From: an uncultured Lachnospiraceae bacterium
GTDB taxonomy: Bacteria > Bacillota > Clostridia > Lachnospirales > Lachnospiraceae
DNA length: 64,000 nucleotides
Assembly: GCA_964591105.1 (NCBI GenBank)
Contig: CAZPZR010000001.1
Span: 4,903 to 68,902 of the forward strand
Direction: 5' to 3'
This document shows positions 976 through 48,761 of the stretch, piece after piece. A program made the position numbers and the translations under genes. A model generated the notes under the pieces. The model was given only the letters and a program-made list of their open reading frames with translations, did no database searches and was not told the origin of the DNA. Within the stretch, counting starts at the first letter, position 1. Each line of letters begins with the position of its first letter.

Positions 976-1142
976 TTTATCACCTCAATGTAACTATTAT
1001 ATAGTATTGAAAACTAGATGACAAGGGGAAAATATTTCTGCAAAAATATTTCTACCAAAAAATTTCTAGAAACATTTCTTAGAAATTGAGAACTTAACAT
1101 TAACTTAGCACACAGATATGTTACAATATTTAAAATGAGAAT

Positions 1143-2582
1143 GTGAAAGGGCGGCTTAGAATCATGAGGGAGAGAGTTGCGCCTGTAATAAAAAATAGTT
1201 TGGTCACAGTGGTGATTTTACTTTTGTCTACGGCGCTTTGTTTTGTATTGCAAAAAATTGCGTCTACGGATACACATGTACCGTTGATTTTCGTGTTGGC
1301 GGTGTTGTTTGTGTCACGATTTACAGATGGATATCGATATGGAGTAATTGCAGCGATGGTTGCGGTGGTAGGAGTGAATTATATTTTCACCTATCCATAT
1401 TTTCAGATTGATTTTACTATTACAGGATATCCAATTACATTTCTTGCGATGTTGGCTGTTGCAATCAGCGTGAGTGCATTGACTACGCAGATTAAAAAGC
1501 AGGAACAGATGCGTCTGGAAGTAGAAAAGGAGAAGATGCGAGCAAATCTTCTGCGGGCGGTGTCTCATGATATTCGTACGCCACTGACATCGATTGCGGG
1601 TTCTGCAGCAGGAATTTTGGATAATCAAGAAGTGCTATCCAGTGAAAAGGTATTGGATCTGGTGAGTAATATTAAGGAAGAAGCAGAGTGGATGGTTCGC
1701 ATGGTAATTGCAGCGATGGTTGCGGTGGTAGGAGTGAATTATATTTTCACCTATCCATATTTTCAGATTGATTTTACTATTACAGGATATCCAATTACAT
1801 TTCTTGCGATGTTGGCTGTTGCAATCAGCGTGAGTGCATTGACTACGCAGATTAAAAAGCAGGAACAGATGCGTCTGGAAGTAGAAAAGGAGAAGATGCG
1901 AGCAAATCTTCTGCGGGCGGTGTCTCATGATATTCGTACGCCACTGACATCGATTGCGGGTTCTGCAGCAGGAATTTTGGATAATCAAGAAGTGCTATCC
2001 AGTGAAAAGGTATTGGATCTGGTGAGTAATATTAAGGAAGAAGCAGAGTGGATGGTTCGCATGGTGGAAAATTTGTTATCGATTACCCGTATGAATACGG
2101 AAAATGCGAAGATAGACACTCGCGAGGAGTTGGTTGAGGAAGTTGTTAGCGGTTCTGTTGTGAAGTTTCAGAAGCGTTTTCCGGAAATTCAGGTCGTTGC
2201 CAACATTCCGGATGAAGTGCTTTTGGTACCGATGGATGTCATTTTGATTGAACAGGTGATTGTAAATCTGATGGAAAATTCCGTAGTTCATGGACGCGCA
2301 ACAGAAATCCAGATTTTAGTAGAACGAAAGAAGAGGGAAATTGTATTTCGAGTCAAAGATAATGGCTCCGGAATTGAACCGGAGGTTCTGCCACATATGT
2401 TCGACGGATCCATTGGAAGTAGTGCAGGAGAACCGGGAGACAGTAAGAGAAATATGGGAATTGGCTTATCCGTGTGCAAGAGCATCGTGAAGGCTCATAA
2501 GGGAAATATGCAGGCAGCAAATAATAAAGAAGGCGGAGCAAGCGTTTCATTTACCATCCCGTTTGAGGGAGAGGAAAGTTAG
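1143..2582 (+). CDS. Sensor histidine kinase resembling the C-terminal half of KdpD (DUF4118 TM region + HisKA + HATPase_c), carrying an internal 120-codon tandem duplication
   Basis: The ORF starts at GTG 1143; ATG 1164 is also possible. It has TM helices, the H-box SHDIRTPL (present twice), and ATPase boxes NLMENSVVHG, DNGSGI, GIGLSV. A KdpE-like regulator follows 12 nt downstream. Confidence 0.85.
   Translation: MKGRLRIMRERVAPVIKNSLVTVVILLLSTALCFVLQKIASTDTHVPLIFVLAVLFVSRFTDGYRYGVIAAMVAVVGVNYIFTYPYFQIDFTITGYPITFLAMLAVAISVSALTTQIKKQEQMRLEVEKEKMRANLLRAVSHDIRTPLTSIAGSAAGILDNQEVLSSEKVLDLVSNIKEEAEWMVRMVIAAMVAVVGVNYIFTYPYFQIDFTITGYPITFLAMLAVAISVSALTTQIKKQEQMRLEVEKEKMRANLLRAVSHDIRTPLTSIAGSAAGILDNQEVLSSEKVLDLVSNIKEEAEWMVRMVENLLSITRMNTENAKIDTREELVEEVVSGSVVKFQKRFPEIQVVANIPDEVLLVPMDVILIEQVIVNLMENSVVHGRATEIQILVERKKREIVFRVKDNGSGIEPEVLPHMFDGSIGSSAGEPGDSKRNMGIGLSVCKSIVKAHKGNMQAANNKEGGASVSFTIPFEGEES
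1344..1703. repeat. Tandem duplication, copy 1 (360 bp)
   Basis: Identical base for base to 1704-2063 by line-by-line comparison. Boundaries are ambiguous by the 2-nt microhomology gt. Confidence 0.95.
1704..2063. repeat. Tandem duplication, copy 2 (360 bp)
   Basis: Identical to 1344-1703. In frame (120 codons: VIAAMVAVVGVNY...EEAEWMVRM). Confidence 0.95.
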
Positions 2583-2593
2583 AGGAGAAAATC

Positions 2594-3298
2594 ATGCAGA
2601 TAAGAGATAAAGTACTGATTGTAGAAGATGACAAAAATATCCGGAATTTTTTAGAAACGATTCTGGAGGCGAATAATTATGATGTAATTGTATCAAAAAC
2701 GGGGATGGAAGCCAGCAGCCTGATTACGTCTCAGTGTCCGGATGTTGTGCTGTTAGACCTGGGACTTCCGGATGTTGACGGGATGAAGATTTTGCGGGAT
2801 GTGCGCAGATGGTCTGATATGCCAATCATTGTAGTGTCTGCAAGAACCCATGAAAGAGACAAAGTTGAGGCGTTGGACATGGGCGCTGATGATTATATTA
2901 CGAAACCATTTGGAACATCAGAGCTTCTTGCAAGAATACGTGCAGCAGTTCGTCATTCCAGAGGAGCAGGTAAGAGCCAAGCATCTCAGACAATGTCTTT
3001 CTTGGGCGGACGACTGGTAGTTGACTATGACAAACATCGTGTCTTTATTGATGGGAATGATGCAGGATTCACACAGAACGAATTTAAACTAATCAGCCTT
3101 CTTGGAAAATATTCTGGAAAGGTATTAACCTATGATTATATGATGAAAGAAATCTGGGGACCGAATGTGAAGAATGATAATCGGATTCTTCGCGTTAATA
3201 TGGCAAATATGCGCCGAAAAATTGAACAAAATCCAGCACAGCCGGAATTTATCTTTACGGAAATCGGTGTTGGTTATCGAATTGTGGAAGCAGACTAA
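2594..3298 (+). CDS. OmpR-family response regulator, KdpE-like
   Basis: Receiver domain (LIVEDD, DLGLPDVDG, KPF) plus a winged-helix C-terminus (GVGYR). Overall similarity to KdpE. No kdpFABC genes are in the window. Confidence 0.85.
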   Translation: MQIRDKVLIVEDDKNIRNFLETILEANNYDVIVSKTGMEASSLITSQCPDVVLLDLGLPDVDGMKILRDVRRWSDMPIIVVSARTHERDKVEALDMGADDYITKPFGTSELLARIRAAVRHSRGAGKSQASQTMSFLGGRLVVDYDKHRVFIDGNDAGFTQNEFKLISLLGKYSGKVLTYDYMMKEIWGPNVKNDNRILRVNMANMRRKIEQNPAQPEFIFTEIGVGYRIVEAD

Positions 3299-3359: not shown

Positions 3360-3387
3360 TTGATATTTTCAGAGTGTGTGCTATAAT
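3360..3387 (+). promoter_or_regulatory. Sigma-70-type promoter with extended -10
   Basis: -35 ttgata (3360-3365), 16-nt spacer ending in tgc, then -10 tataat (3382-3387). Confidence 0.55.
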
Positions 3388-3400
3388 ATAGTTCGCTATC

Positions 3401-3445
3401 AAACAATTCGAAATCGAACAATTCGAGATTGAACAATTATGAGAG
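3401..3445 (+). promoter_or_regulatory. Three 15-bp direct repeats, candidate MarR operator
   Basis: aaacaattcgaaatc / gaacaattcgagatt / gaacaattatgagag lie head to tail between the promoter and the MarR start codon. Confidence 0.5.
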
Positions 3446-3460
3446 TAGGTATTTTGCAAG

Positions 3461-3943
3461 ATGAGAAGTGAAATGAAAATTTGTATGGAAGTGCATAAGC
3501 TGGATTGTCTGCTTGGAAGAACAACAGCTTATTTTGCGCGTGTGGCTGGATTCGATGAGATAACAATGATGCATGGAAGAATCATACGATATCTATATGA
3601 CCATCAAGAACAGAATGTGTTTCAAAAGGACATTGAACAGTTCTTTTCGGTGGGACGATCAACAGTCACGAATATGCTGCAGTTGATGGAGAAGAAGGGA
3701 TATATTCGTCGAGAATCAGTGGACTACGATGCAAGGCTCAAGCGTGTGTGTCTGACAGAAGGCGGAGTGCAGGTTCAAAGAGAGATTGAAAGCATGATCT
3801 GTGATATGGACTCCAGATTGTTGGCAGGAATTGGAGACGAGGAACTGGAAGGATTTCTTCAGGTGATTCATAAAATTGAAAGTAATGCAAGAAAGGAGAG
3901 AAAAGATGATTCGAACGATATTACAACACGTAAAAGAGTATAA
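3461..3943 (+). CDS. MarR family transcriptional regulator
   Basis: Winged-helix core (QKDIEQFFSVGRSTVTNMLQLMEKKGYIRRE...DARLKRVCLTEGG). The start is uncertain; ATGs at 3461, 3473 and 3485 are all possible. Confidence 0.8.
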   Translation: MRSEMKICMEVHKLDCLLGRTTAYFARVAGFDEITMMHGRIIRYLYDHQEQNVFQKDIEQFFSVGRSTVTNMLQLMEKKGYIRRESVDYDARLKRVCLTEGGVQVQREIESMICDMDSRLLAGIGDEELEGFLQVIHKIESNARKERKDDSNDITTRKRV

Positions 3944-7748: not shown

Positions 7749-8516
7749 ATGATAAAAATTAGAGAGATTGTCAGACCTGAGAGTCTGGAAGAAGCGTATG
7801 AACTGAATCAGAAAAGGGCAAATCGTATTTTGGGAGGCATGATGTGGATGCGAATGAGCGATGCACAGATTATGAAAGCCATTGATTTGTCTGGATTGGG
7901 ATTGGACAAGATTGAGGAGACAGAAGAAGAATTTTCTATTGGATGTATGGTTACACTTCGTGAGTTGGAACTTCACGAAGGATTGAACGCAATGTGCGAC
8001 GGACTTATTTGCAAATCCGTAGAAAGTATTGTTGGAGTTCAATTCCGAAACACAGCAACAATTGGGGGTAGCATCTTTGGAAGATTTGGATTTTCAGATG
8101 TGCTGACAGCATTCTTAGTGTTAGATACTTATGTTGAACTGTACAAGGGTGGTATCGTATCACTGGAAGAATTTGCAACTATGAAACGAGACAATGACAT
8201 TTTGGTTCGTGTGATTGTGAAGAAGAAAGCTGGACATGCAGCTTATCAGTCACATCGTAATACAAAGACAGATTTTCCGGTACTTGCAGTTGCTATGTCA
8301 CAGAGCACAGATGGAATTAAGGTTGCCATTGGAGCAAGACCAGCCAAAGCAGTATTGCTGCGTGCGGAAGATTTGAAAGAAGAGACATTGGAACAGTTGG
8401 CAGGAAGCGTTTCTTATGACAGTAATATGCGTGCGTCTGCCCAGTATAGAGAGCATCTGGCAAAAGTCCTGCTGAAAAGGGCAGCTGCAGAACTTCAGGA
8501 AAAGGAGGCAATCTAA
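7749..8516 (+). CDS. Xanthine dehydrogenase family, FAD-binding subunit
   Basis: 255-aa ORF with the molybdopterin-dehydrogenase FAD-binding fold (ILGGMMWMR...TIGGSI). It is the first gene of the three-subunit set. Confidence 0.8.
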   Translation: MIKIREIVRPESLEEAYELNQKRANRILGGMMWMRMSDAQIMKAIDLSGLGLDKIEETEEEFSIGCMVTLRELELHEGLNAMCDGLICKSVESIVGVQFRNTATIGGSIFGRFGFSDVLTAFLVLDTYVELYKGGIVSLEEFATMKRDNDILVRVIVKKKAGHAAYQSHRNTKTDFPVLAVAMSQSTDGIKVAIGARPAKAVLLRAEDLKEETLEQLAGSVSYDSNMRASAQYREHLAKVLLKRAAAELQEKEAI

Positions 8517-8518
8517 GG

Positions 8519-8995
8519 ATGATCGTAACAATTGAGTTAAATGGAAAGAAAATTATCGAAGATGTAAAGGCAGATCAGACGTTGTATCAGTTTGTAAGAG
8601 ATCATGGATGCTACAGTGTGAAGTGTGGATGTGAGACAACAAACTGCGGATTGTGTACTGTTTTCTTAGATGAAAAGCCAGTGTTATCCTGTTCTGTTTT
8701 GACAGCACGAGCAGATGGGAAAAAAGTAGATACATTGGAAGGACTTCAGAAAGAAGCAGAAGAATTTGGAACATTTATTGCAAATCAGGGAGCTGAACAG
8801 TGTGGATTCTGTAATCCGGGAATGATCATGAATGCAATTGCACTGTTCCGTGAAATAGAAGATCCATCGGACGAAGAGATTAAGAAATATTTGGCAGGAA
8901 ATTTGTGCCGCTGTTCTGGATACGAAGGACAGATGCGAGGAATTAAAGACTTTATAGAATATAAGAAGCAGGGAGGAGCAGCATGGGCGAAGTAG
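8519..8995 (+). CDS. Xanthine dehydrogenase family, (2Fe-2S)-binding small subunit
   Basis: Cysteine motifs CGCETTNCGLCTV and CGFCNPGMIM...CRCSGY. Confidence 0.9.
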   Translation: MIVTIELNGKKIIEDVKADQTLYQFVRDHGCYSVKCGCETTNCGLCTVFLDEKPVLSCSVLTARADGKKVDTLEGLQKEAEEFGTFIANQGAEQCGFCNPGMIMNAIALFREIEDPSDEEIKKYLAGNLCRCSGYEGQMRGIKDFIEYKKQGGAAWAK

Positions 8996-11265
8996 GACAG
9001 GCAATAAGAAAAAAAGATGCAATAGCGTTAGTGACTGGTAAACCGGTGTATCTGGATGATGTAGCACCACAGGATTGTCTCGTTGTAAAGGTACTTCGAA
9101 GCCCTCATGCCAATGCGATCATTGAGAACATTGACTGCACGAATGCTTTGAAAGTGCCAGGGATTGAAGTAATCTATACATGGAAAGATGTACCAAAGAA
9201 TCGATTTGCACAGGCAGGTCAGACTTACCCAGAGTGGAGTCCTTATGACCGTTTGATCCTGGATCAGCATGTTCGTTTTGTTGGAGATGCTGTAGCAATC
9301 ATTGCAGGGGAAGACGAAGCTTGTGTTGACCTTGCAATGAAGCGAATCAAAGTCACTTATCAGGTGCTTCCAGCGGTGTTGGATTATCATCAGGCAAAAG
9401 ACAATGAAATCTTGGTGCATCCGGAAGAGAACTGGGAATCTAGATTTCCAGTAGGAGCAGACAATAAGAGAAATCTCTGTGCACATATGGAAGATACTAA
9501 GGGAGAAGTAGAGCAGGTATTTGAAGACTGTGATCTTACGATTGAACGAACATTCCATACACCAGCGGCTAATCAGGCGATGATGGAGACATTCCGAACT
9601 GCCTGTCATATTGATACATATGGGCGACTGGTTGTATTGAGTTCAACACAGATTGTGTTCCACATTCGTCGAATTCTTTCTCATGCACTTGGAATCCCAA
9701 AATCTAAGATTCGTTCTATGAAACCACGTATTGGTGGTGGATTCGGTGCAAAGCAGACGGTTGTGGCAGAGATTTACCCAGCATTTGTTACATGGATGAC
9801 AAAGAAACCATCCAAATTATTATATTCTCGCGAAGAATGTCAGATTGCTGGTTCTCCACGCCATGAAATGGATGTTACAGTGAAGATTGGTGCGAATAAA
9901 GATGGAAAAATTCGTGCGATTGAAGTATATAACTTATCCAATACGGGAGCCTATGGCGATCACGGACCAACAACGGCTGGTCTGACTGGACATAAGTCCA
10001 TCCCATTGTACACAGCGAATTTGGAAGCTTATCGTCATACCTTTGACGTAGTATATACCAATATCTGTGCGGCAGGAGCATACCGCGGATATGGGGCAAC
10101 TCAGGGAATCTATGCGTTGGAAACAACGGTAAATGAACTGGCAGAAACCTTGAAGATGGATCCAGTAGAACTTCGTATGAAGAACATGGTGCGTGAAGGA
10201 ATGACAATGATTTCATACGATAATGAATTGGCAGCAGGATGTAAACTGGATGAATGTATGATGCGAACTGCAGAGATGATCGGATGGAAAGACAAGTTCC
10301 CTTGCAAGGATCTTGGAAATGGAAAAGTGCGTTCTGTCGGAATTGCGATGGCAATGCAGGGATCTTGTATTTCTCATGTAGACGTAGGTTCTGCAACAAT
10401 CATGCTGAACGAAGATGGAAGTTATAAGTTATCCATTGCAGCAGCAGATATGGGAACTGGATGCGACACCATTCTTGCACAGATGGCAGCAGATTGCCTG
10501 AATGTGACAACAGATGAAATCTTTGTCTCAGGCGCGGATACAGATTCTTCTCCTTATGATTCTGGATCTTACGCATCAAGTACAACCTATATTACCGGTC
10601 AGGCAGTTGTACGTGCATGCACAGAGTTAGAAAAGAGAATCCGCACAGTTGCAGCGAAAATGGTGGATTGCGAGCTGGATGATCTGGAATACGATGGACA
10701 GACAGCGAAAAATATTGTGACAGGAAAGTCTGTGACATTGGAAGAAATTGGATATCAGGCACAGTGCTTCAATGATGTGGCGTTGCAGGTGACTGAAAGT
10801 TATTCTTCTCCAGTGTCTCCACCGCCATATATGGCAGGTGCCGTAGAGATTGAATTGGATAAAGAAACTGGACATGTGGAAATCATCGATTACGCAGCAG
10901 TTGTAGACTGTGGAACGGTTGTGAATCCAAACCTTGCCAGAGTGCAGGTAGAAGGTGGTCTTGGACAGGGAATTGGAATGACCTTATTTGAAAACATCCA
11001 GTATTCTCCAAAGGGACAGCTATACAATAATTCTCTGATGCAGTATAAGATTCCAACAAGAATGGATTATGGAAAATTACGTGTAGAATTTAGATCCAGC
11101 TATGAACCAACAGGACCATTTGGAGTAAAATCCATCGGTGAGATTGTAATCAATACTCCAGCACCAGCGATTACCCATGCAATTTATAATGCGACAGGTC
11201 ACTGGTTTAGAGAACTTCCAATTACAAGTGAACAGATTGCGATGGCCATTGCGGGAGATAAATAA
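8983..11265 (+). CDS. Xanthine dehydrogenase family, molybdopterin-binding large subunit
   Basis: 760-aa ORF with aldehyde oxidase/xanthine dehydrogenase a/b-hammerhead and Mo-binding domains (GGGFGAK, AYRGYG, GEI...PA). Confidence 0.9.
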   Translation: MGEVGQAIRKKDAIALVTGKPVYLDDVAPQDCLVVKVLRSPHANAIIENIDCTNALKVPGIEVIYTWKDVPKNRFAQAGQTYPEWSPYDRLILDQHVRFVGDAVAIIAGEDEACVDLAMKRIKVTYQVLPAVLDYHQAKDNEILVHPEENWESRFPVGADNKRNLCAHMEDTKGEVEQVFEDCDLTIERTFHTPAANQAMMETFRTACHIDTYGRLVVLSSTQIVFHIRRILSHALGIPKSKIRSMKPRIGGGFGAKQTVVAEIYPAFVTWMTKKPSKLLYSREECQIAGSPRHEMDVTVKIGANKDGKIRAIEVYNLSNTGAYGDHGPTTAGLTGHKSIPLYTANLEAYRHTFDVVYTNICAAGAYRGYGATQGIYALETTVNELAETLKMDPVELRMKNMVREGMTMISYDNELAAGCKLDECMMRTAEMIGWKDKFPCKDLGNGKVRSVGIAMAMQGSCISHVDVGSATIMLNEDGSYKLSIAAADMGTGCDTILAQMAADCLNVTTDEIFVSGADTDSSPYDSGSYASSTTYITGQAVVRACTELEKRIRTVAAKMVDCELDDLEYDGQTAKNIVTGKSVTLEEIGYQAQCFNDVALQVTESYSSPVSPPPYMAGAVEIELDKETGHVEIIDYAAVVDCGTVVNPNLARVQVEGGLGQGIGMTLFENIQYSPKGQLYNNSLMQYKIPTRMDYGKLRVEFRSSYEPTGPFGVKSIGEIVINTPAPAITHAIYNATGHWFRELPITSEQIAMAIAGDK

Positions 11266-12012
11266 ATGATTTTAAACTGTAAAAATGGGAAATGGGAAGA
11301 ACAAAGCAGCTTATTCGAAGCTCTGGGCTTACATAAAGAGCAGCAGGAAGTTCTTTCGTTCACAGGCGGAGGCGGTAAGACGACGCTCATCCGCAGATTA
11401 CAAAAAGAGTTGAAGGCACGGGAAATTATGCACGGTGTTTCAACGACAACCCATATGCAGTATGAATGTGAAGAAAGCTTTCTGGGGGAATCATCGCTGG
11501 AAAGCTTTCTTAAGGTTTACAGACATACGAGGACTGTATGGATGGGGGAACCCATTTCCAAGGAGAAAATACAAGGATTTTCCAGAGAATTCTATCAGCA
11601 ACTGATAAAAATGGGCGCGTGGTTGCTTTTAGAAGCAGATGGTGCAAAGCATCTCCCAGTGAAGGCTCCAGAGGCAAAGGAGCCAGTAATTCTGCCGGAG
11701 AGCACAAGGGTGTGTAATGTCTATGGCCTGGATGGGGTAGGAAAACCTATTCGGGAAGGATGCTTTCGCGTAGAACGAGTGATGGAAATTCTTGGAAAAG
11801 AAGAACATGATTTGCTGGAAGAAACGGACATTGTCCGACTTGCAGCAAGTATATCTGGAGGAAGAAAACTAGTAGGAGAACGTCCCTATCATGTGATATT
11901 AAATAAAGCAGATACGGTCGGGCAGCGGGAAATGGCAGAACGCATCGGAATGCGTATCCTCGCCCTTGGTATCGGCGAAGTACATATCACAGCGGGACTG
12001 TGTGAAGAATAA
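11266..12012 (+). CDS. yqeC: Selenium-dependent hydroxylase accessory protein YqeC
   Basis: 248-aa ORF with P-loop FTGGGGKTT. Its position directly after the Mo subunit (TAAATG overlap) and before yqeB fits the family. Confidence 0.7.
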   Translation: MILNCKNGKWEEQSSLFEALGLHKEQQEVLSFTGGGGKTTLIRRLQKELKAREIMHGVSTTTHMQYECEESFLGESSLESFLKVYRHTRTVWMGEPISKEKIQGFSREFYQQLIKMGAWLLLEADGAKHLPVKAPEAKEPVILPESTRVCNVYGLDGVGKPIREGCFRVERVMEILGKEEHDLLEETDIVRLAASISGGRKLVGERPYHVILNKADTVGQREMAERIGMRILALGIGEVHITAGLCEE

Positions 12013-12023
12013 GGAAGTAGGAA

Positions 12024-13388
12024 ATGGCACTTAGGATATTGATCAAAGGCGCAGGTGACCTGGCCACAGGGGTGGCAGCAGAACTCAAAGAGCAGGGACA
12101 TCAGATTGTAATGACAGAGATTGCAATCCCTTTGACTGTGCGTAGACAAGTGGCTTGTTCACGGGCAGTATACGAAACAGAAGTAAAGATTGAACAACAT
12201 ACAGCTGTGCTGGCACAGGATGCGGGGGAAGCGGAACAAATCCTACGAGAAGGGAAGATTGCGGTTCTTATTGATCCAAAGGCAGAAATTGCAAGAAAGC
12301 TGCAGCCAGATGTGATTGTAGACGCAATCATGGCAAAGGAAAATCTTGGAACATCTATGGAAGATGCTCCGTGTGTGGTCGCACTGGGACCTGGATTTAC
12401 AGCAGGAAAGGACTGCCATGCGGTTATCGAAACAAAACGAGGAGATACCCTTGGCGTACCGATTTATAAAGGTTCTGCGATTCCTAATACGGGAATCCCG
12501 GGGATGGTAGGCGGTTATGCCATGGAACGATTGATCCGCGCAGGCGAAGCGGGAAAAATGCAGCCGGTGGCAGCCATTGGAGATATAGTGAAAAAGGGAG
12601 ATCTTCTTGCAATTACAGGAGAAACGAAGGTGTATGCAGCCATTGATGGTGTGGTGCGCGGAATGCTCCAAGAGGGAGTTGACGTAAAAAAAGGAATGAA
12701 AATAGGTGATGTAGACCCTAGAATGGATGTAGAATTAGCATATCTGATCTCGGATAAAGCCAGAAAAATCGGACAGGGTGTGAAAGAAGCAATAAAGCGG
12801 CTGCGTTACCGGGAGTATGGAATCGTATGTCTGGCAGCAGGGCGTTCTCAGCGTTATGGAACTTCCGAAGAAAATAAGTTACTGGAATGTAAAGAGGGAA
12901 AACCAATGTATCAGTATCTTCTGGAGCAGATGCAGCAGTTTCCTATGTGTGATGTTGCAGTAGTCAGCCGGGTTCCGGAAATTTTGGATTATGCCAGAGA
13001 GCATCAGATGAAGGCTGTTGAAAATTATGAGCCGGAGAAGGGGATTTCCTGGTCTTTACGTAAGGGATTAGCAGCGTGTCAATCGGAGAAAGAAAGGCTT
13101 CGCGGTGTGCTTTTTGCAGTTTGCGATCAGCCGAATCTGAGTGCAGAGACGATTGAGCGGATGCTGGAACTTGCTTGTGAACACCCAGGGAAGATTATTT
13201 GCGCTGCAAACGAAGGTAAGAGGGGAAATCCAGTGTTGATGGATCAGTGCTATTTTGAAGAATTGGAGCAGCTGACAGGAGATGTTGGTGGCAAACAAGT
13301 GATTCAGAAACATTCAGAACAAGTGATTTTATGCGAGACAGGAGCGAAAGAGCTTTTGGATGTGGATGAAAAGGGAATAGAATGGTAA
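12024..13388 (+). CDS. yqeB: YqeB-family selenium-dependent Mo-hydroxylase maturation protein fused to a MobA/MocA-like nucleotidyltransferase domain
   Basis: The N-terminal ~260 aa are YqeB (EF2563)-like. The C-terminal ~190 aa (VCLAAGRSQRYG...AVCDQP...GNPVL) resemble a MocA/MobA NTP transferase. Confidence 0.65.
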   Translation: MALRILIKGAGDLATGVAAELKEQGHQIVMTEIAIPLTVRRQVACSRAVYETEVKIEQHTAVLAQDAGEAEQILREGKIAVLIDPKAEIARKLQPDVIVDAIMAKENLGTSMEDAPCVVALGPGFTAGKDCHAVIETKRGDTLGVPIYKGSAIPNTGIPGMVGGYAMERLIRAGEAGKMQPVAAIGDIVKKGDLLAITGETKVYAAIDGVVRGMLQEGVDVKKGMKIGDVDPRMDVELAYLISDKARKIGQGVKEAIKRLRYREYGIVCLAAGRSQRYGTSEENKLLECKEGKPMYQYLLEQMQQFPMCDVAVVSRVPEILDYAREHQMKAVENYEPEKGISWSLRKGLAACQSEKERLRGVLFAVCDQPNLSAETIERMLELACEHPGKIICAANEGKRGNPVLMDQCYFEELEQLTGDVGGKQVIQKHSEQVILCETGAKELLDVDEKGIEW

Positions 13389-38759: not shown

Positions 38760-40361
38760 CTACGGGGGATCCGCGAGATTAAGGTGAAAATCTATACCAT
38801 CAGGCAAGCTGTATTTGAAATGAATTTCTGGGGATCCGTATGCATCTACTTCAATCCGTTCAATTAAGATTTCGATATCTTTTCGGTCAAGCACACCGTT
38901 TTCAATAATCTTATCCATTACCTGTAAAGCATTATGAAGTTTTTCTTTTTTATTTTCATTCTTTGAATGGATTTCGTTTAATTCCTGAAGCTTTAATTCA
39001 AAATCATGAATCTGCGAAATGATATCCTGCTGCAGGGCATCGTAGATTTCATTTACAAGATTTTCGTTTCTGTGAGCATTGGACAAGTCTCTGACTTTCT
39101 GAGTAAAGAGAATTTTCAACTGTACTTTTCGTTCTCCCAACTGTTTTTGAATCTCTAAACGTTTTTCGTCTACTGTTTTTTCCTCAGAATCAAAATCCTT
39201 CATATCATAAGCCTCAATGATTTCACAAAGAGAATTTCGACAGAGTTTCAGGTAGGTTATCACATCTTTCATTAGATTATTTTCTTCGATAAGATGGGAT
39301 TTTTCACAATAGCGTTTACCTTTGGTGTTGTATGTGGTACAGATATAATATTTTCGCTCTCTGGCAGTGGTCGTTCGTTTGATTGGGGTTAAACGCTTTC
39401 CGCAATCTTTGCAAAAAAGACAGTTTCCAAAAGGATTCTGCATGTTGGGCAACTGCCTGCGACTGCCACGATAATTATTTTTTACGCGCTTTTCCTTTAT
39501 ATCCTGTATCAAATCAAAAGTGGCTTTATCAATGATGGCAGGGTGATGATTTTCGAAAATATACTGTTCTTCTTTGGGAATACGTTTGTCTTTGCCGTGA
39601 ACCGTAGAACGGGCACGTTTTCGTAATCGAAGGATGCCGATGTAAAAATCATTATTTAGTAGCTCTTTGACCATAGAATCTGACCAGACAGTGGCAACTG
39701 CACGTTTGCTGATTTTCCCTTCTACAAGTTCACGCTTGTGGCGAACCATAGAAGGAGTTGGCACTTTGTGTTTCGTCAAATAATTGGAAATCTTGCGATA
39801 GCCGAAGCCCTTTAGATAAAGGTCGTAAATCATGTGTATGACGGAAGCCTCTTCCGGTATGATTTCCATCGTTGTTTCGTCTTTGTCGTTCCTTTTATAT
39901 CCAAATGGTGGTTGAGTCACCAGGATTCCATCTTTTTGTCTAGCTTCAATCGCACTTTTGATTTTGTGGCTGATATCTTTGACATATTTTTCGTTATACC
40001 AGGTTAAGATGCCAATTGTATCATCGTCATCAGATTCTGAATGATAGTTGGTATCAATGATAACCAGTTCTTTTTGGCGTTCTTTGAAATCTTCCAAAAG
40101 AAGGAGGACGCGAGCGTTATGACGTCCGATACGAGACAGGTCTTTGACAAACACGCGCTCAATATGATCCAAATCCTCCAGTAATCTGTTTAATCCGGGG
40201 CGATTGAAGCTATAGCCGGAGACACCATCATCTTCATACCAACTGTCAATTACGACGTTGTATTCAGCCGCAAATTGACGAATGATTCGTTTTTGATTTT
40301 CAATAGAGACATAATTACGTTTGTCATCATCTCTGGATAGACGTACATACCCAACATTCAT
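38760..40361 (-). CDS. Large serine recombinase (resolvase + recombinase + zinc-ribbon domains, DUF4368-like C-terminus; TnpX-like)
   Basis: Catalytic motif VGYVRLSRDD. Zinc ribbon CLFCKDCG...YYICTTY...CE. C-terminal coiled coil plus IERIEV. Confidence 0.9.
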   Translation of the reverse strand: MNVGYVRLSRDDDKRNYVSIENQKRIIRQFAAEYNVVIDSWYEDDGVSGYSFNRPGLNRLLEDLDHIERVFVKDLSRIGRHNARVLLLLEDFKERQKELVIIDTNYHSESDDDDTIGILTWYNEKYVKDISHKIKSAIEARQKDGILVTQPPFGYKRNDKDETTMEIIPEEASVIHMIYDLYLKGFGYRKISNYLTKHKVPTPSMVRHKRELVEGKISKRAVATVWSDSMVKELLNNDFYIGILRLRKRARSTVHGKDKRIPKEEQYIFENHHPAIIDKATFDLIQDIKEKRVKNNYRGSRRQLPNMQNPFGNCLFCKDCGKRLTPIKRTTTARERKYYICTTYNTKGKRYCEKSHLIEENNLMKDVITYLKLCRNSLCEIIEAYDMKDFDSEEKTVDEKRLEIQKQLGERKVQLKILFTQKVRDLSNAHRNENLVNEIYDALQQDIISQIHDFELKLQELNEIHSKNENKKEKLHNALQVMDKIIENGVLDRKDIEILIERIEVDAYGSPEIHFKYSLPDGIDFHLNLADPP

Positions 40362-40625
40362 AAAGACAATTCCTTGTAGTGATTTTTAATGATTGCCTTT
40401 AATCCGTCGTGAATATTTTCATCTTTCTTCCCATCCAGATAAGTGACAACTCGAAAGCCATGTTTTCTATATTGTTCTTTTGCTGTTTCGAATTCTTCCT
40501 GTGATGAAAAATTATTTCTCCAAAGATAATAGGTTGGTTTGCTCAAATGTGATTTCATCCTCCTCGTCTGATAAGCGGAAGCAGTCTTGCTTCCAGTTTA
40601 TGCAATTTTGCTCTGGGTGTTGCAA
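40348..40625. repeat. Repeat R1, copy a (278 bp): recombinase 5' end, 66-aa ORF and its upstream region
   Basis: Matches 43271-43548 at offset 2923, with about 5 mismatches by eye, all outside the small ORF. Confidence 0.9.
40358..40558 (-). CDS. Hypothetical 66-aa protein translationally coupled to the recombinase (candidate accessory/directionality factor)
   Basis: Its stop overlaps the recombinase ATG (ATGA). An identical copy lies at 43281-43481. The AGGAGG abuts the ATG, so the start is not certain. Confidence 0.55.
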   Translation of the reverse strand: MKSHLSKPTYYLWRNNFSSQEEFETAKEQYRKHGFRVVTYLDGKKDENIHDGLKAIIKNHYKELSL

Positions 40626-43008: not shown

Positions 43009-43270
43009 TGTTGAATAATTCCGAAAAATATTGCATTGTTAATTTTCACAATTTCTATGTTTGCATAGTGGAAAAATTATTTTACTGGGGATATGCACAT
43101 TGAACATAGTATTGTGGGAATTTTATTATCAAGAGTAGCAAAGAAGACAGTGAGAATGAAAAAGAAGGAAAACGAAAGAGTATGAGGGAGGAACTATGAA
43201 AAAAATGAGTTTTTTGTGTGCATTAAGTATTTCAACAGCGATTCTGTGTGGAATCTGGTCTTACCTGGCT
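43003..43270. repeat. Repeat R2, copy a (268 bp): promoter/leader and first 25 codons of the DUF1097 gene
   Basis: Matches 44861-45128 at offset 1858 with 6 mismatches by eye. Five lie in the first ~50 nt and one is a synonymous change in codon 8. Confidence 0.9.
43196..43270 (+). pseudogene. Truncated 5' fragment (25 codons) of a DUF1097 gene, fused to repeat R1b
   Basis: MKKMSFLCALSISTAILCGIWSYLA is identical to the start of the 45054 gene. The reading frame then runs into antisense R1 sequence and stops after 13 codons. Confidence 0.85.
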
Positions 43271-43548
43271 TACCCAACGTTCATAAAGACAATTCCTTGT
43301 AGTGATTTTTAATGATTGCCTTTAATCCGTCGTGAATATTTTCATCTTTCTTCCCATCCAGATAAGTGACAACTCGAAAGCCATGTTTTCTATATTGTTC
43401 TTTTGCTGTTTCGAATTCTTCCTGTGATGAAAAATTATTTCTCCAAAGATAATAGGTTGGTTTGCTCAAATGTGATTTCATCCTCCTCGCTTGATAAGCG
43501 GAAGCAGTCTTGCTTCCAGTTTATGCAATTTTGCGCTGGGTGTTGCAA
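43271..43548. repeat. Repeat R1, copy b (278 bp), recombinase-less
   Basis: It begins with tacccaacgttcat, which is the first 13 nt of a recombinase gene on the minus strand (MNVG then a stop), and continues through the 66-aa ORF and its upstream hairpin. Confidence 0.9.
43281..43481 (-). CDS. Hypothetical 66-aa protein, second identical copy
   Basis: 201/201 nt identical to 40358-40558. Confidence 0.5.
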   Translation of the reverse strand: MKSHLSKPTYYLWRNNFSSQEEFETAKEQYRKHGFRVVTYLDGKKDENIHDGLKAIIKNHYKELSL

Positions 43549-43635: not shown

Positions 43636-44133
43636 TTATCGGTCCCACTCATATGCGAGCTTTGGACCTCCATCAAAAGTAATCAGCCCGCAATATTCAA
43701 ACCCTTCTCGGACAAGAATATGCTGCATTACTTTGTTTTCGTCTTGCGTGTCAACACGAATTGCTTCAATCGCATTCTCAATACAGAAATTCTTTATCAA
43801 TGTAATTGCCTTCTTGGACAATCCCTTCCCTCTAGCATTCTGAGAAAAGGCCATTCTATGTACGACGGCATAGGGACGATTTGTTTTCCACTCGCCGTCA
43901 ATAACACGATAAGCTGGTTCATCTCCAATGATAATGCAGCAGTATCCGTAAATTTTATTTTCTTCTTCAAATACATAACCAATACTCGCTTTAATATCGT
44001 CTTCAATCGTAGCAAGTGTTGGGTACCCCGGGTGCCATTGTACAAATCCCATAGAGTTGTGATATGCTCTCGCGTCTTCGATACATTGATAAGATATTTT
44101 TGCTTCATTCATTTGTGCTTTTCTTAATAACAT
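43636..44133 (-). CDS. GNAT family N-acetyltransferase
   Basis: Acetyl-CoA binding segment VHRMAFSQNARGKGLSKKAI. The start was moved to ATG 44133, which follows aggag. Confidence 0.8.
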   Translation of the reverse strand: MLLRKAQMNEAKISYQCIEDARAYHNSMGFVQWHPGYPTLATIEDDIKASIGYVFEEENKIYGYCCIIIGDEPAYRVIDGEWKTNRPYAVVHRMAFSQNARGKGLSKKAITLIKNFCIENAIEAIRVDTQDENKVMQHILVREGFEYCGLITFDGGPKLAYEWDR

Positions 44134-44175
44134 GGTTTTTCTCCTATAAAAAATTTTCGCGATAAACAAAAGATA

Positions 44176-44277: not shown

Positions 44278-44829
44278 ATGGATATTCAAAAAAATGTAGG
44301 GAAAAACATTAAAACAATTAGAGAGCAAAAGAAAATCACGTTAGACTCAGCGTCAAAACTAACCGGAGTCTCTCGAAGTATGCTTGCGCAAATTGAAAAA
44401 GGAGAAGTAAATCCTACCATTTCCATTCTCTGGAAAATTGCAAACGGATATAAGGTGTCGTTTACTTCACTTGTTAAATACGATACGCCTTCTCTTTTGA
44501 TAAAATCAGAAGAAGTACGCCCATTTATTGAAAGTGATGAAAAATATATTAATTATCCCGCTTTTCCATTTCAAGAAGATAAACAGTTTGAAACATATCG
44601 CATTGAAATAAAAGAAGGTGGATATTTGCAGGCTCAACCTCATTTAGACGGAGCCGAAGAATATATTACTGTTTTTGATGGAGAAGTTGAGATAATAGCT
44701 GATTCGGAAACATTTCGGATAAAAAAAGGCGATTCATTATGTTTTAAGGCGGATGTAGCCCATTCATATAAAAACACAGGAGAAACAACAGCATATTTAA
44801 GCATGATTATTTATTATTCAAATAAATAG
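44278..44829 (+). CDS. XRE-family HTH regulator with C-terminal cupin domain
   Basis: HTH motif LDSASKLTGVSRSMLAQIEKGEVNPTISILWKIA. Cupin motifs: first PHLDGAEEYITVFDGEV, then FKADVAHSYKN. Confidence 0.85.
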   Translation: MDIQKNVGKNIKTIREQKKITLDSASKLTGVSRSMLAQIEKGEVNPTISILWKIANGYKVSFTSLVKYDTPSLLIKSEEVRPFIESDEKYINYPAFPFQEDKQFETYRIEIKEGGYLQAQPHLDGAEEYITVFDGEVEIIADSETFRIKKGDSLCFKADVAHSYKNTGETTAYLSMIIYYSNK

Positions 44830-44860: not shown

Positions 44861-45128
44861 TTTTTGTATTGAATAATTTCGAAAAATAGTGTATTGTTAA
44901 TTTTTACAATTTCTATGTTTGCATAGTGGAAAAATTATTTTACTGGGGATATGCACATTGAACATAGTATTGTGGGAATTTTATTATCAAGAGTAGCAAA
45001 GAAGACAGTGAGAATGAAAAAGAAGGAAAACGAAAGAGTATGAGGGAGGAACTATGAAAAAAATGAGTTTTTTGTGCGCATTAAGTATTTCAACAGCGAT
45101 TCTGTGTGGAATCTGGTCTTACCTGGCT
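44861..45128. repeat. Repeat R2, copy b (268 bp), continuous with the intact DUF1097 gene
   Basis: See copy a. Confidence 0.9.
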
Positions 45129-45524
45129 GGGATGGTTGGATTAATCGGTTGGGCTGGATTTGCCGGATGTACAACATATTTTGCATGCGGAAAGCATGGG
45201 GCAGAAGGTGTTAAGAAGACGATTATTCCAAATCTGACAGGAGTAATTTGTGGAATGGTGATTATTACATTAAGCAATATTGTCCCAGAATTAGGAGATC
45301 TTGGAATATGGTGTGCGATTATTACGTTTGTAATGTGCATCATAGCAAAATGCGAGTGGTTTGATTTTTGTCCAGGAACATTCATGGGATGCTTTACAAC
45401 ATTTGCAGCTGGCGGTGATTGGAAATTGTTATCGGTGTCACTGGTCATCGGTGCATTTTTAGGTCTTGGATGTGACTACGGCGGGGAATGGTTACATAAG
45501 ATTGTGACAGGAAAAAAATCATAA
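45054..45524 (+). CDS. Small polytopic membrane protein, DUF1097-like
   Basis: 156-aa ORF with 4-5 TM helices and the motif GWAGFAGCTTYFACG. The family assignment is from memory. Confidence 0.55.
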   Translation: MKKMSFLCALSISTAILCGIWSYLAGMVGLIGWAGFAGCTTYFACGKHGAEGVKKTIIPNLTGVICGMVIITLSNIVPELGDLGIWCAIITFVMCIIAKCEWFDFCPGTFMGCFTTFAAGGDWKLLSVSLVIGAFLGLGCDYGGEWLHKIVTGKKS

Positions 45525-48675: not shown

Positions 48676-48700
48676 GACTCACCTCCAAAATGTAAAATTA

Positions 48701-48761
48701 ACTTTACAATAAAAGTATAGTTTACTTTACAATAAATGTCAAGTTTATTTTACATTTATTG
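48701..48761. promoter_or_regulatory. Operator-like repeats upstream of the XRE gene
   Basis: actttacaataaa occurs twice (48701-48713 and 48724-48736). A perfect 10-bp inverted repeat, caataaatgt (48730-48739) and acatttattg (48752-48761), is also present. Confidence 0.45.

What the first reader, a model, noticed from the sequence alone, without database searches (positions are those of the whole stretch)
1344..2063. A perfect in-frame 360-bp tandem duplication in a histidine-kinase gene doubles two TM helices and the phospho-acceptor domain
**What the sequence shows.** 1344-1703 and 1704-2063 are identical base for base, with a 2-nt gt microhomology at the joint. The unit is exactly 120 codons. 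It spans the last two membrane helices, the coiled-coil linker and the HisKA helix carrying the H-box SHDIRTPL.

**Consequence for the protein.** The predicted protein has two phospho-acceptor domains. Because an even number of TM helices is duplicated, membrane topology is preserved: the first dimerisation/phospho-acceptor (DHp) copy is cytoplasmic, the chain then crosses the membrane out and back, and the second DHp copy plus the ATPase domain are cytoplasmic. Without the duplication the protein would be 359 aa.

**Interpretation.** Zero divergence implies a very recent event. It could be a reversible RecA-dependent duplication/collapse acting as a population-level switch of the two-component system. 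It could also be an assembly artefact.
Basis: seen in the sequence. Interest (0 to 1): 0.65.

Follow-up and report, generated by a model that had tools for sequence, protein, structure and literature searches.

The report
One-off duplication inside a sensor-kinase gene
A gut Clostridia bacterium carries a perfect 360-base head-to-tail duplication inside a sensor-kinase gene; every other copy of the gene found, including otherwise identical strains, has one copy, so this is most likely a very recent private mutation (or less likely an assembly error), not an evolved switch.

Summary
Window 1344-1703 and 1704-2063 are identical base for base. The unit is 120 codons, in frame, and the joint has 2 nt (GT) of microhomology. 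The gene (1164-2582) encodes a short KdpD-like histidine kinase (DUF4118, HisKA, HATPase_c), followed by a KdpE-like regulator.

- The protein is 472 aa, and 352 aa when collapsed.
- The unit holds TM3, TM4, the linker, helix α1 with the His, and only 21 of 33 residues of DHp helix α2 (HisKA profile 2-53 of 66). The first "phospho-acceptor domain" is therefore truncated and fused directly to a membrane helix.
- Recency is shown mainly by comparison, not by zero divergence between the copies.

The exact collapsed protein is encoded on 9 contigs from independent sequencing runs. Eight of these were compared, and their DNA is 99.95-100% identical to the collapsed window with no gaps. The other 119 top homologues are single-copy by length, 41 related genomes give single matches of about 1 kb without internal repeats, and none of the 150 best representatives of 1.84 billion proteins spans the junction.

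Best reading: a recent, private tandem duplication formed by illegitimate recombination. It is unstable and probably perturbs signalling. An assembly artefact cannot be excluded without reads. The switch idea has no support. Interest is low.

The parts
1164..2582 (+). Sensor histidine kinase gene carrying the duplication: 472 aa, DUF4118 membrane domain, HisKA, HATPase_c. An alternative GTG start lies at 1143.
   Evidence: ORF list. Pfam: DUF4118 4.6e-44, HisKA 2e-25 in 2 stretches, HATPase_c 1.6e-21. Database gene call P0001 is 472 aa. Closest solved structure is the E. coli KdpD kinase core 6lgq_C, 3.9e-24.
1344..1703 (+). Copy 1 of the 360-bp unit (residues 61-180): TM3, TM4, coiled-coil linker, DHp α1 with His135 (codon 1566-1568), and the first 21 residues of α2.
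   Evidence: Exact identity to copy 2. Unit alone matches DUF4118 profile 48-104/107 and HisKA 2-53/66. Helix map from the AlphaFold model of the native protein.
1704..2063 (+). Copy 2 of the unit (residues 181-300, His255 codon 1926-1928). It continues into the rest of α2 and the ATPase domain, so this copy belongs to an intact kinase core.
   Evidence: In the alignment with 45 homologues, all leave a 120-column gap against one copy.
1702..1705 (+). The new junction (…CGCATG|GTAATT…), at protein level …EWMVRM|VIAAMV…. Helix α2 is fused to TM3'.
   Evidence: Sequence. The junction 38-mer has no match in JGI metagenome contigs, but the control 38-mer has none either.
2064..2065 (+). GT microhomology: the 2 nt after copy 2 that repeat the first 2 nt of the unit.
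   Evidence: Right extension 2 nt, left extension 0 nt.
2594..3298 (+). Cognate OmpR/KdpE-like response regulator gene, 11 nt downstream of the kinase stop. It is untouched by the duplication.
   Evidence: Pfam Response_reg and Trans_reg_C. Best NCBIfam match is KdpE, 211 bits, below the 325 cut-off. A regulator lies directly downstream of the kinase in 36 of 41 related genomes.
1100..1127 (+). Promoter-like site upstream of the kinase (TTAACT, 16 nt, TACAAT, with TG). Consensus match only.

Best explanation
This is a real, very recent, private tandem duplication inside the gene for a short KdpD-like sensor kinase.

**How it formed (inferred).** It arose once in this lineage by illegitimate, homology-independent joining such as replication slippage or template switching. 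Only 2 nt are shared at the joint.

**What it does to the DNA (inferred).** It now provides 360 bp of perfect homology, so homologous recombination can delete one copy precisely. It is therefore an unstable allele that persists only if it is young, bottlenecked or selected. If the assembly was made from short reads, two copies is a lower bound.

**What it does to the protein.** It inserts TM3-TM4-linker-α1(His)-two-thirds of α2 in front of an intact TM3'-TM4'-DHp-ATPase core (shown). The first hairpin lacks the conserved end of α2. Its remaining α2 (21 residues) is too short to run back along the 45-residue cytoplasmic part of the TM4-linker-α1 helix to the membrane. The extra module is therefore unlikely to be a working second phospho-acceptor. 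More probably it distorts or uncouples the membrane input, leaving the kinase off or deregulated (inferred). The regulator gene downstream remains expressed because the frame is kept.

**What it is not.** It is an ordinary spontaneous mutation, not an evolved device.
For: **Shown by tool results.**
- Exact 2 x 360 bp, in frame, with a 2-nt joint.
- The two-copy protein P0001 is a singleton on one contig among 5.8 billion clusters.
- The exact collapsed 352-aa protein P0003 is on 9 contigs from independent runs. The 8 examined align to the collapsed window without gaps at 99.95-100% identity, including 6,934 bp and 4,990 bp at 100%.
- The 97-99% identical variants P0002, P0004 and P0005, and all 119 other top homologues, are 339-401 aa.
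- The 41 related genome loci give single matches of about 1 kb and have no internal repeat of 60 bp or more.
- None of the 150 best of 1.84 billion representatives matches colinearly across the junction.
- All 45 aligned homologues leave a 120-residue gap against one copy.
- The breakpoints map to the start of TM3 and the middle of α2.

**From the literature.** Amplification junctions with microhomology or no homology are documented in Staphylococcus aureus (PMC11721125).

**Inference from how assemblers work (my own knowledge).** A graph assembler cannot create the junction k-mers without reads containing them. Placing a 360-bp exact repeat twice in one contig needs read-pair or long-read support.
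Against: - No reads, depth or assembler information are available, so the junction is unverified.
- It is seen in one contig only.
- No fragment protein ending at the unit borders, which would signal a broken assembly graph elsewhere, was found.
- Being in frame is only a 1-in-3 coincidence.
- The AlphaFold model of the duplicated protein is poor (mean pLDDT 57.7, first copy below 50). The protein-level consequences are therefore geometric inference, not a result.
Confidence: 0.62

Rival explanations
1. Assembly or post-assembly artefact. The genome has one copy. The second copy came from joining two contigs whose ends overlapped by 360 bp without merging them, from a gap-filling or polishing step, or from a long-read consensus error.
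For: The two-copy form exists on a single contig in the whole protein collection. Otherwise identical DNA from 8 other runs is single-copy. Perfect identity of the copies is what an unmerged overlap would give. Nothing independent confirms the junction.
Against: There is no N or gap at the joint, and there is no other such duplication in 64 kb. From my own knowledge, k-mer graph assemblers cannot invent a junction that has only 2 nt of overlap, and contig-end overlaps from such assemblers are normally k-sized (127-141 nt or less), not 360. The unit being an exact multiple of 3 and the joint having microhomology are mild points for a biological event, with a combined likelihood ratio of perhaps 5-10.
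Confidence: 0.25
2. An evolved, reversible duplication/collapse switch (phase variation) of the two-component system.
For: Collapse by recombination between 360-bp repeats is expected to be frequent (inference). There is a precedent of this kind: a spontaneous 661-bp duplication in the Pseudomonas tolaasii sensor gene that causes phenotypic switching (Han et al. 1997, listed as reference 33 in PMC12124856). Keeping the frame would allow a distinct protein state rather than a null.
Against: About 26 contigs of this species cluster (P0002-P0005) encode only 352-aa single-copy products, and the 41 related genome loci show one copy each. Nothing at the breakpoints would make the forward step frequent: 2 nt of homology, and the nearby 7-nt GATGGTT repeats are 336 nt apart, out of register with the 360-bp unit. 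No architecture of this kind exists among the best 150 representatives.
Confidence: 0.05
3. A selected change-of-function allele. The duplicated kinase is locked on or off, and that state was favoured in the host or in culture, so the unstable allele rose to dominance.
For: An unstable duplication that reaches assembly consensus needs a bottleneck or selection (inference). The frame is preserved and the C-terminal kinase core is intact. Small in-frame insertions and duplications in sensor kinases are selected under antibiotic stress, for example in envZ (PMC9241649).
Against: There is no phenotype and no recurrence. The regulon is unknown, because the neighbours of the kinase-regulator pair are not conserved. 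A single-colony bottleneck explains fixation equally well.
Confidence: 0.08

Closest known systems
Spontaneous tandem duplications with microhomology or no-homology junctions (gene duplication-amplification in bacteria; review PMC11721125)
   Same: Head-to-tail identical copies, a novel joint with 0 to a few nt of homology, absence from near-identical relatives, and expected instability through recombination between the copies.
   Different: Those cases usually span whole genes (kilobases and more) and act through dosage. This one is 360 bp, lies inside one gene, is in frame, and changes protein architecture rather than copy number.
661-bp duplication in the Pseudomonas tolaasii sensor-regulator gene pheN that causes colony phenotype switching (Han, Pain and Johnstone 1997; cited in PMC12124856, ref 33)
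   Same: An intragenic tandem duplication of a few hundred bp in a two-component sensor gene, and reversible.
   Different: 661 bp is not a multiple of 3, so from my own reading it disrupts the frame. It recurs and has a demonstrated phenotype. Here the frame is kept, the event is seen once, and no phenotype is known. I did not read the original paper.
RecA-dependent 208.6-kb duplication between insertion sequences in Burkholderia thailandensis that activates a two-component system (PMC12124856)
   Same: A duplication state changes two-component signalling and produces population heterogeneity.
   Different: That duplication forms between long, nearly identical IS copies at a constant measurable rate in both directions and acts through gene dosage. 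Here there are no flanking repeats and the change is inside the kinase.
KdpD/KdpE potassium-sensing two-component system
   Same: The membrane domain is DUF4118. The kinase core is closest to E. coli KdpD (6lgq_C, 3.9e-24; NCBIfam KdpD positions 648-883). The regulator is closest to KdpE.
   Different: There is no N-terminal KdpD or Usp domain, since the protein starts at the membrane domain. Scores are far below the equivalog cut-offs (149 vs 1123 and 211 vs 325). No neighbour beyond the kinase-regulator pair is conserved in relatives, and none of the neighbours scanned here is a Kdp protein.
Internal tandem duplications in eukaryotic receptor kinases (FLT3-ITD; from my own knowledge, not tested)
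   Same: An in-frame internal tandem duplication near the membrane in a membrane receptor kinase, altering regulation while leaving the catalytic domain intact.
   Different: Unrelated protein family and organism, much shorter duplications, and activation there is proven. This is a conceptual analogy only.

Membership tests
Class I (HisKA) membrane histidine kinase | HisKA dimerisation/phospho-acceptor domain with an H-box histidine | tested here: met
   Pfam HisKA 2e-25. SHDIRTPL is invariant across 46 homologues.
Class I (HisKA) membrane histidine kinase | HATPase_c catalytic domain with N, G1 and G2 boxes | tested here: met
   Pfam HATPase_c 1.6e-21. NLMENS..HG, DNGSGI and GIGLSV are conserved. 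Alignment to the KdpD, SrrB and VicK kinase cores.
KdpD sensor kinase (NCBIfam NF007793 equivalog) | Whole-protein score at or above the curated cut-off, with the N-terminal KdpD and Usp domains present | tested here: not met
   149 bits against a cut-off of 1123. Only profile positions 648-883 of 895 are matched. Pfam finds no KdpD or Usp domain.
KdpD sensor kinase (NCBIfam NF007793 equivalog) | Four-helix DUF4118 membrane domain directly before the kinase core | tested here: met
   DUF4118 4.6e-44. Four hydrophobic helices in the native form.
Spontaneous tandem duplication by illegitimate recombination | Two identical head-to-tail copies with a novel joint that has no or only a few nt of homology | tested here: met
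   360/360 identical, 2-nt GT joint. No in-register longer repeat at the breakpoints.
Spontaneous tandem duplication by illegitimate recombination | Derived state: close relatives carry one copy | tested here: met
   8 contigs compared at 99.95-100% DNA identity are single-copy. All other homologues are single-copy.
Spontaneous tandem duplication by illegitimate recombination | Junction and doubled depth present in the raw reads | not testable with these tools
   No reads or assembly metadata are available. The protein is not in the gene-position index.
Phase-variation / reversible duplication switch | Both states recur in independent populations of the species | tested here: not met
   Only this contig has two copies. 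P0002-P0005, on about 26 contigs, all encode 352-aa single-copy products.
Phase-variation / reversible duplication switch | A sequence feature that makes the forward step frequent (long flanking repeats, simple repeats, recombinase sites) | tested here: not met
   2-nt microhomology only. The GATGGTT repeats are 336 nt apart and out of register. No notable inverted repeats at the breakpoints.
Phase-variation / reversible duplication switch | Measurable interconversion and distinct phenotypes | not testable with these tools
   Needs cultures.

The most novel reading that the evidence does not exclude
The two-copy allele is real and encodes a working six-helix sensor kinase. Its extra membrane-tethered histidine hairpin changes signalling, for example as an internal phosphate sink or a locked state. 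Formation and RecA-mediated collapse of the duplication give a gut Clostridia population two heritable, interconvertible signalling states.
Probability: 0.04. Interest if true: 0.55.

Novelty: new member of a known kind. Interest (0 to 1): 0.2.

Why it matters
If real, this is a clean natural example of how a membrane sensor kinase can gain modules in one step. One in-frame event adds two membrane helices and most of a phospho-acceptor hairpin while keeping an intact kinase core. It is also an allele that can revert precisely.

That is of modest interest for understanding domain accretion in two-component sensors and mutational heterogeneity in gut bacteria. The kinase's signal and targets are unknown, the event is seen once, and intragenic tandem duplications are a well-known class of spontaneous mutation.

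If it is an artefact, it matters only as a quality flag for this assembly and for the 472-aa protein record derived from it.

Tried and rejected
1. **JGI metagenome scan for the junction 38-mer** found 0 hits. The control 38-mer across the native left boundary also found 0. The species is simply absent there, so the result is uninformative.
2. **Exact look-up of the 472-aa protein** in the gene-position index found nothing on record, so the source contig and sample could not be identified.
3. **Search with the 120-aa unit** for database fragments ending at the unit borders, which would be a signature of a broken assembly graph in another sample. It returned only short fragments of 81% identity or less. 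It did not even list P0001 or P0003, so candidate retrieval was limited. This is weak negative evidence.
4. **AlphaFold of the duplicated protein** gave mean pLDDT 57.7, with the first copy below 50, because the alignment covers only one copy. I used it only for helix boundaries, and rely on the native model instead.
5. **Longer homology at the breakpoints.** GATGGTT occurs near both ends, but 336 nt apart and not in register. Rejected as the cause.
6. **Conserved neighbours that might reveal the regulon.** Only the kinase-regulator pair is conserved; every other neighbour family occurs in 9 or fewer of 41 loci.
7. **Literature searches** for in-frame tandem duplications in histidine kinases gave no direct precedent of this size. 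Only small envZ in-frame insertions (PMC9241649) and the P. tolaasii citation turned up.
8. **GTDB genome scan.** The species itself is not among the representatives; the best match is 65% identity. The organism can only be placed near Lachnospiraceae-like Clostridia, from the names of homologues.

Full report
**1.

Window 1344-1703 and 1704-2063 are identical at all 360 positions. Tandem Repeats Finder reports one array, period 360, 2.0 copies, 100% matches, 1344-2065. The identity continues for 2 nt (GT) beyond the second copy and for 0 nt to the left, so the joint has 2 nt of microhomology. The window contains no N. The only other long exact repeats are two unrelated dispersed pairs at 40-45 kb. 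360 nt is 120 codons, and the reading frame stays open.

**2. The gene**

- The ORF runs from 1143 (GTG) or 1164 (ATG) to 2582. The database gene call is the 472-aa product starting at 1164 (P0001).
- Pfam finds DUF4118 (4.6e-44), HisKA (2e-25, two stretches) and HATPase_c (1.6e-21).
- The closest solved structure is the E. coli KdpD kinase core (6lgq_C, 3.9e-24).
- The NCBIfam KdpD model matches only at its positions 648-883 of 895, with 149 bits against a cut-off of 1123. There is no N-terminal KdpD or Usp domain. This is a short KdpD-like kinase, not KdpD.
- An OmpR-family regulator follows at 2594-3298. Its best match is KdpE, 211 bits against a cut-off of 325.
- In 41 related genome loci the regulator sits directly downstream of the kinase in 36. 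No other neighbour family recurs in more than 9 loci. The signal and the regulon are therefore unknown.
- Named homologues at 61-69% identity are from Lachnospiraceae-like Clostridia: Massilistercora, Dorea, Pilosibacter, Hominiventricola and various Clostridium sp. isolates. The species itself is not among the GTDB representatives scanned; the best match is 65%.

**3. What exactly is duplicated**

- The unit is residues 61-180 of the native 352-aa protein.
- The AlphaFold model of the native form (mean pLDDT 71.6; 86-87 over residues 141-170) has helices 2-32, 38-53, 57-79, 89-153 and 160-192.
- These are TM1, TM2, TM3, one long helix made of TM4, linker and DHp α1 (His135), and DHp α2. Hydropathy agrees on four membrane segments.
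- The left breakpoint (60|61) lies at the start of TM3, just after the invariant GY.YG motif.
- The right breakpoint (180|181) lies inside α2, after 21 of its 33 residues and just before the invariant VENLLS.TR motif.
- Scanned alone, the unit matches DUF4118 profile positions 48-104 of 107 and HisKA positions 2-53 of 66. With the native continuation, HisKA reaches 65 of 66.
- The duplicated protein therefore reads TM1-TM2-TM3-TM4-linker-α1(His135)-truncated α2, fused directly to TM3'-TM4'-linker-α1(His255)-full α2-ATPase.

**4. Is the two-copy form found anywhere else? No**

- Among 5.8 billion protein clusters, P0001 is a singleton on one contig of 90,290 bp.
- The exact collapsed protein (P0003, 352 aa) is encoded on 9 contigs, and the 8 places shown come from 8 sequencing runs in three accession series.
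- With one copy removed, the window aligns to those 8 contigs without any gap at 99.95-100% identity. This includes 6,934 bp, 4,990 bp and 2,099 bp at 100%.
- Variants at 97-99% identity (P0002, P0004, P0005) and all the other top 119 homologues are 339-401 aa.
- All 45 aligned homologues leave exactly a 120-residue gap against one copy.
- The 41 related genome loci show single matches of about 1 kb and contain no internal repeat of 60 bp or more.
- I searched 1.84 billion representatives with a query made of the junction-spanning permuted segment: linker-α1-partial α2-TM3'-TM4', window 1485-1847. The 150 best all match in two non-colinear pieces, and none spans the junction.
- The duplication is thus derived, private and very recent. 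The strongest evidence for recency is its absence from strains with identical flanks. Zero divergence between two 360-bp copies would be expected for a very long time anyway (inference).

**5. How it arose, and its stability**

With only 2 nt shared at the joint, and no in-register longer repeat, formation must have been homology-independent. The nearby GATGGTT repeats are 336 nt apart and so out of register. Junctions with microhomology or none are documented for bacterial amplifications (PMC11721125). Once formed, 360 bp of perfect homology allows precise loss by homologous recombination (established knowledge, not tested here). The forward step is therefore rare and the reverse step frequent. 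That asymmetry is not what an evolved switch looks like.

**6. Real or artefact?**

This cannot be settled without reads.

- *For a real event (my own knowledge of assemblers).* Graph assemblers cannot produce junction k-mers that are absent from the reads, and a 2-nt overlap cannot create a false loop. Assemblers that emit each graph node once cannot place a 360-bp exact repeat twice in one contig, so some read-pair or long-read evidence was probably used. There is no gap at the joint, and the unit is a multiple of 3.
- *For an artefact.* The form occurs only once, the copies are perfectly identical, and two contigs overlapping by 360 bp could have been concatenated.
- *Failed attempts at independent evidence.* JGI metagenomes lack the species altogether, since the control pattern also gave 0 hits. 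The protein is not in the gene-position index. No database fragments end at the unit borders (a limited search).
- *My estimate.* About 0.7-0.75 that the junction exists in the sample, and about 0.25 that it is an artefact.
- If the assembly was made from short reads, two copies is a lower bound and the population may be mixed.

**7. Likely consequence for the protein (inference)**

- In the native model, the cytoplasmic part of the TM4-linker-α1 helix is about 45 residues (109-153). The first copy's α2 has only 21 residues before the hydrophobic TM3' begins.
- At 1.5 Å per helical residue, and counting the 6-residue loop, it cannot return to the membrane alongside an intact α1. Either the first hairpin is distorted, or TM3' does not insert. 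The latter would put the kinase core on the wrong side of the membrane.
- The first hairpin also lacks the conserved end of α2, which completes the four-helix bundle.
- The extra module is thus unlikely to be a second working phospho-acceptor. More probably it decouples or locks the membrane input.
- The AlphaFold model of the duplicated protein is too poor to test this: mean pLDDT 57.7, first copy below 50.
- The regulator gene is unaffected.

**8. Comparison with what is known**

- The closest kind is the ordinary spontaneous tandem duplication.
- The closest specific precedent is the 661-bp duplication in the Pseudomonas tolaasii sensor gene that switches colony phenotype (Han et al. 1997, cited in PMC12124856).
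- A duplication that controls a two-component system through dosage, formed between insertion sequences, is described in Burkholderia thailandensis (PMC12124856).
- Small in-frame insertions and duplications in envZ are selected by cefotaxime (PMC9241649).
- None of these is an in-frame 120-codon duplication that adds membrane helices. The particular allele is new, but the kind of event is not.

**9. Verdict**

This is most likely a one-off, recent, unstable mutation in one genome, or else an assembly error. There is no support for a population switch. Interest is low (0.2).

Noticed in passing
window 40357-40611 vs 43280-43534, and 43048-43270 vs 44906-45128: Two pairs of near-identical dispersed direct repeats (255 bp and 223 bp, 1-2 mismatches).
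- One pair overlaps the start of a 533-aa minus-strand ORF (38760-40361).
- The other pair is the promoter plus the first ~25 codons of a small membrane-protein gene. The intact copy is at 45054-45524.
- Between the repeats lie a 585-aa secreted protein gene and two further ORFs, 43636-44169 (-) and 44278-44829 (+), whose function I did not check.

The layout looks like nested integration of mobile DNA with duplicated target or terminal sequence.
   Followed up: partly
window 1029-1085: ATTTCT occurs four times at spacings of 14, 14 and 12 nt, just upstream of the promoter-like site of the kinase gene. Tandem Repeats Finder reports it as 14 nt x 3.1. It could be a regulator-binding array in the divergent intergenic region. 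It is absent upstream of the kinase in 28 related genomes.
   Followed up: partly
window 3398-3438: A 15-nt tandem repeat (ATCAAACAATTCGAA x 2.7) lies between a strong promoter-like site (3360-3387, 11 of 12 matches) and the MarR-family gene at 3461. It is possibly the MarR operator for the MarR-ABC exporter operon.
   Followed up: no
window 48688-48754: A 23-nt tandem repeat x 2.9 (AAAAGTAAAGTTTACTTTACAAT) containing an internal palindrome, in an intergenic region. It is a possible operator array.
   Followed up: no
window 7749-13388: A cluster for a molybdenum hydroxylase of the xanthine dehydrogenase family: FAD-binding, 2Fe-2S and molybdopterin subunits, followed by YqeC and an NTP-transferase maturation gene. 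This is inferred from the Pfam labels of the identical genes on locus L001.
   Followed up: no
window 1-64000: No tRNA gene and no Rfam family at gathering score in the whole 64-kb window.
   Followed up: yes
L001-L008 (runs SRR19576302/306/311/312, SRR17221326/328/340, SRR22923222): The same strain-level sequence (0-4 mismatches over 2-12 kb) turns up in eight runs from three accession series. Yet the species has no GTDB representative closer than 65% for this protein, and no exact match in JGI metagenome contigs to either 38-mer tested from this gene.
   Followed up: partly
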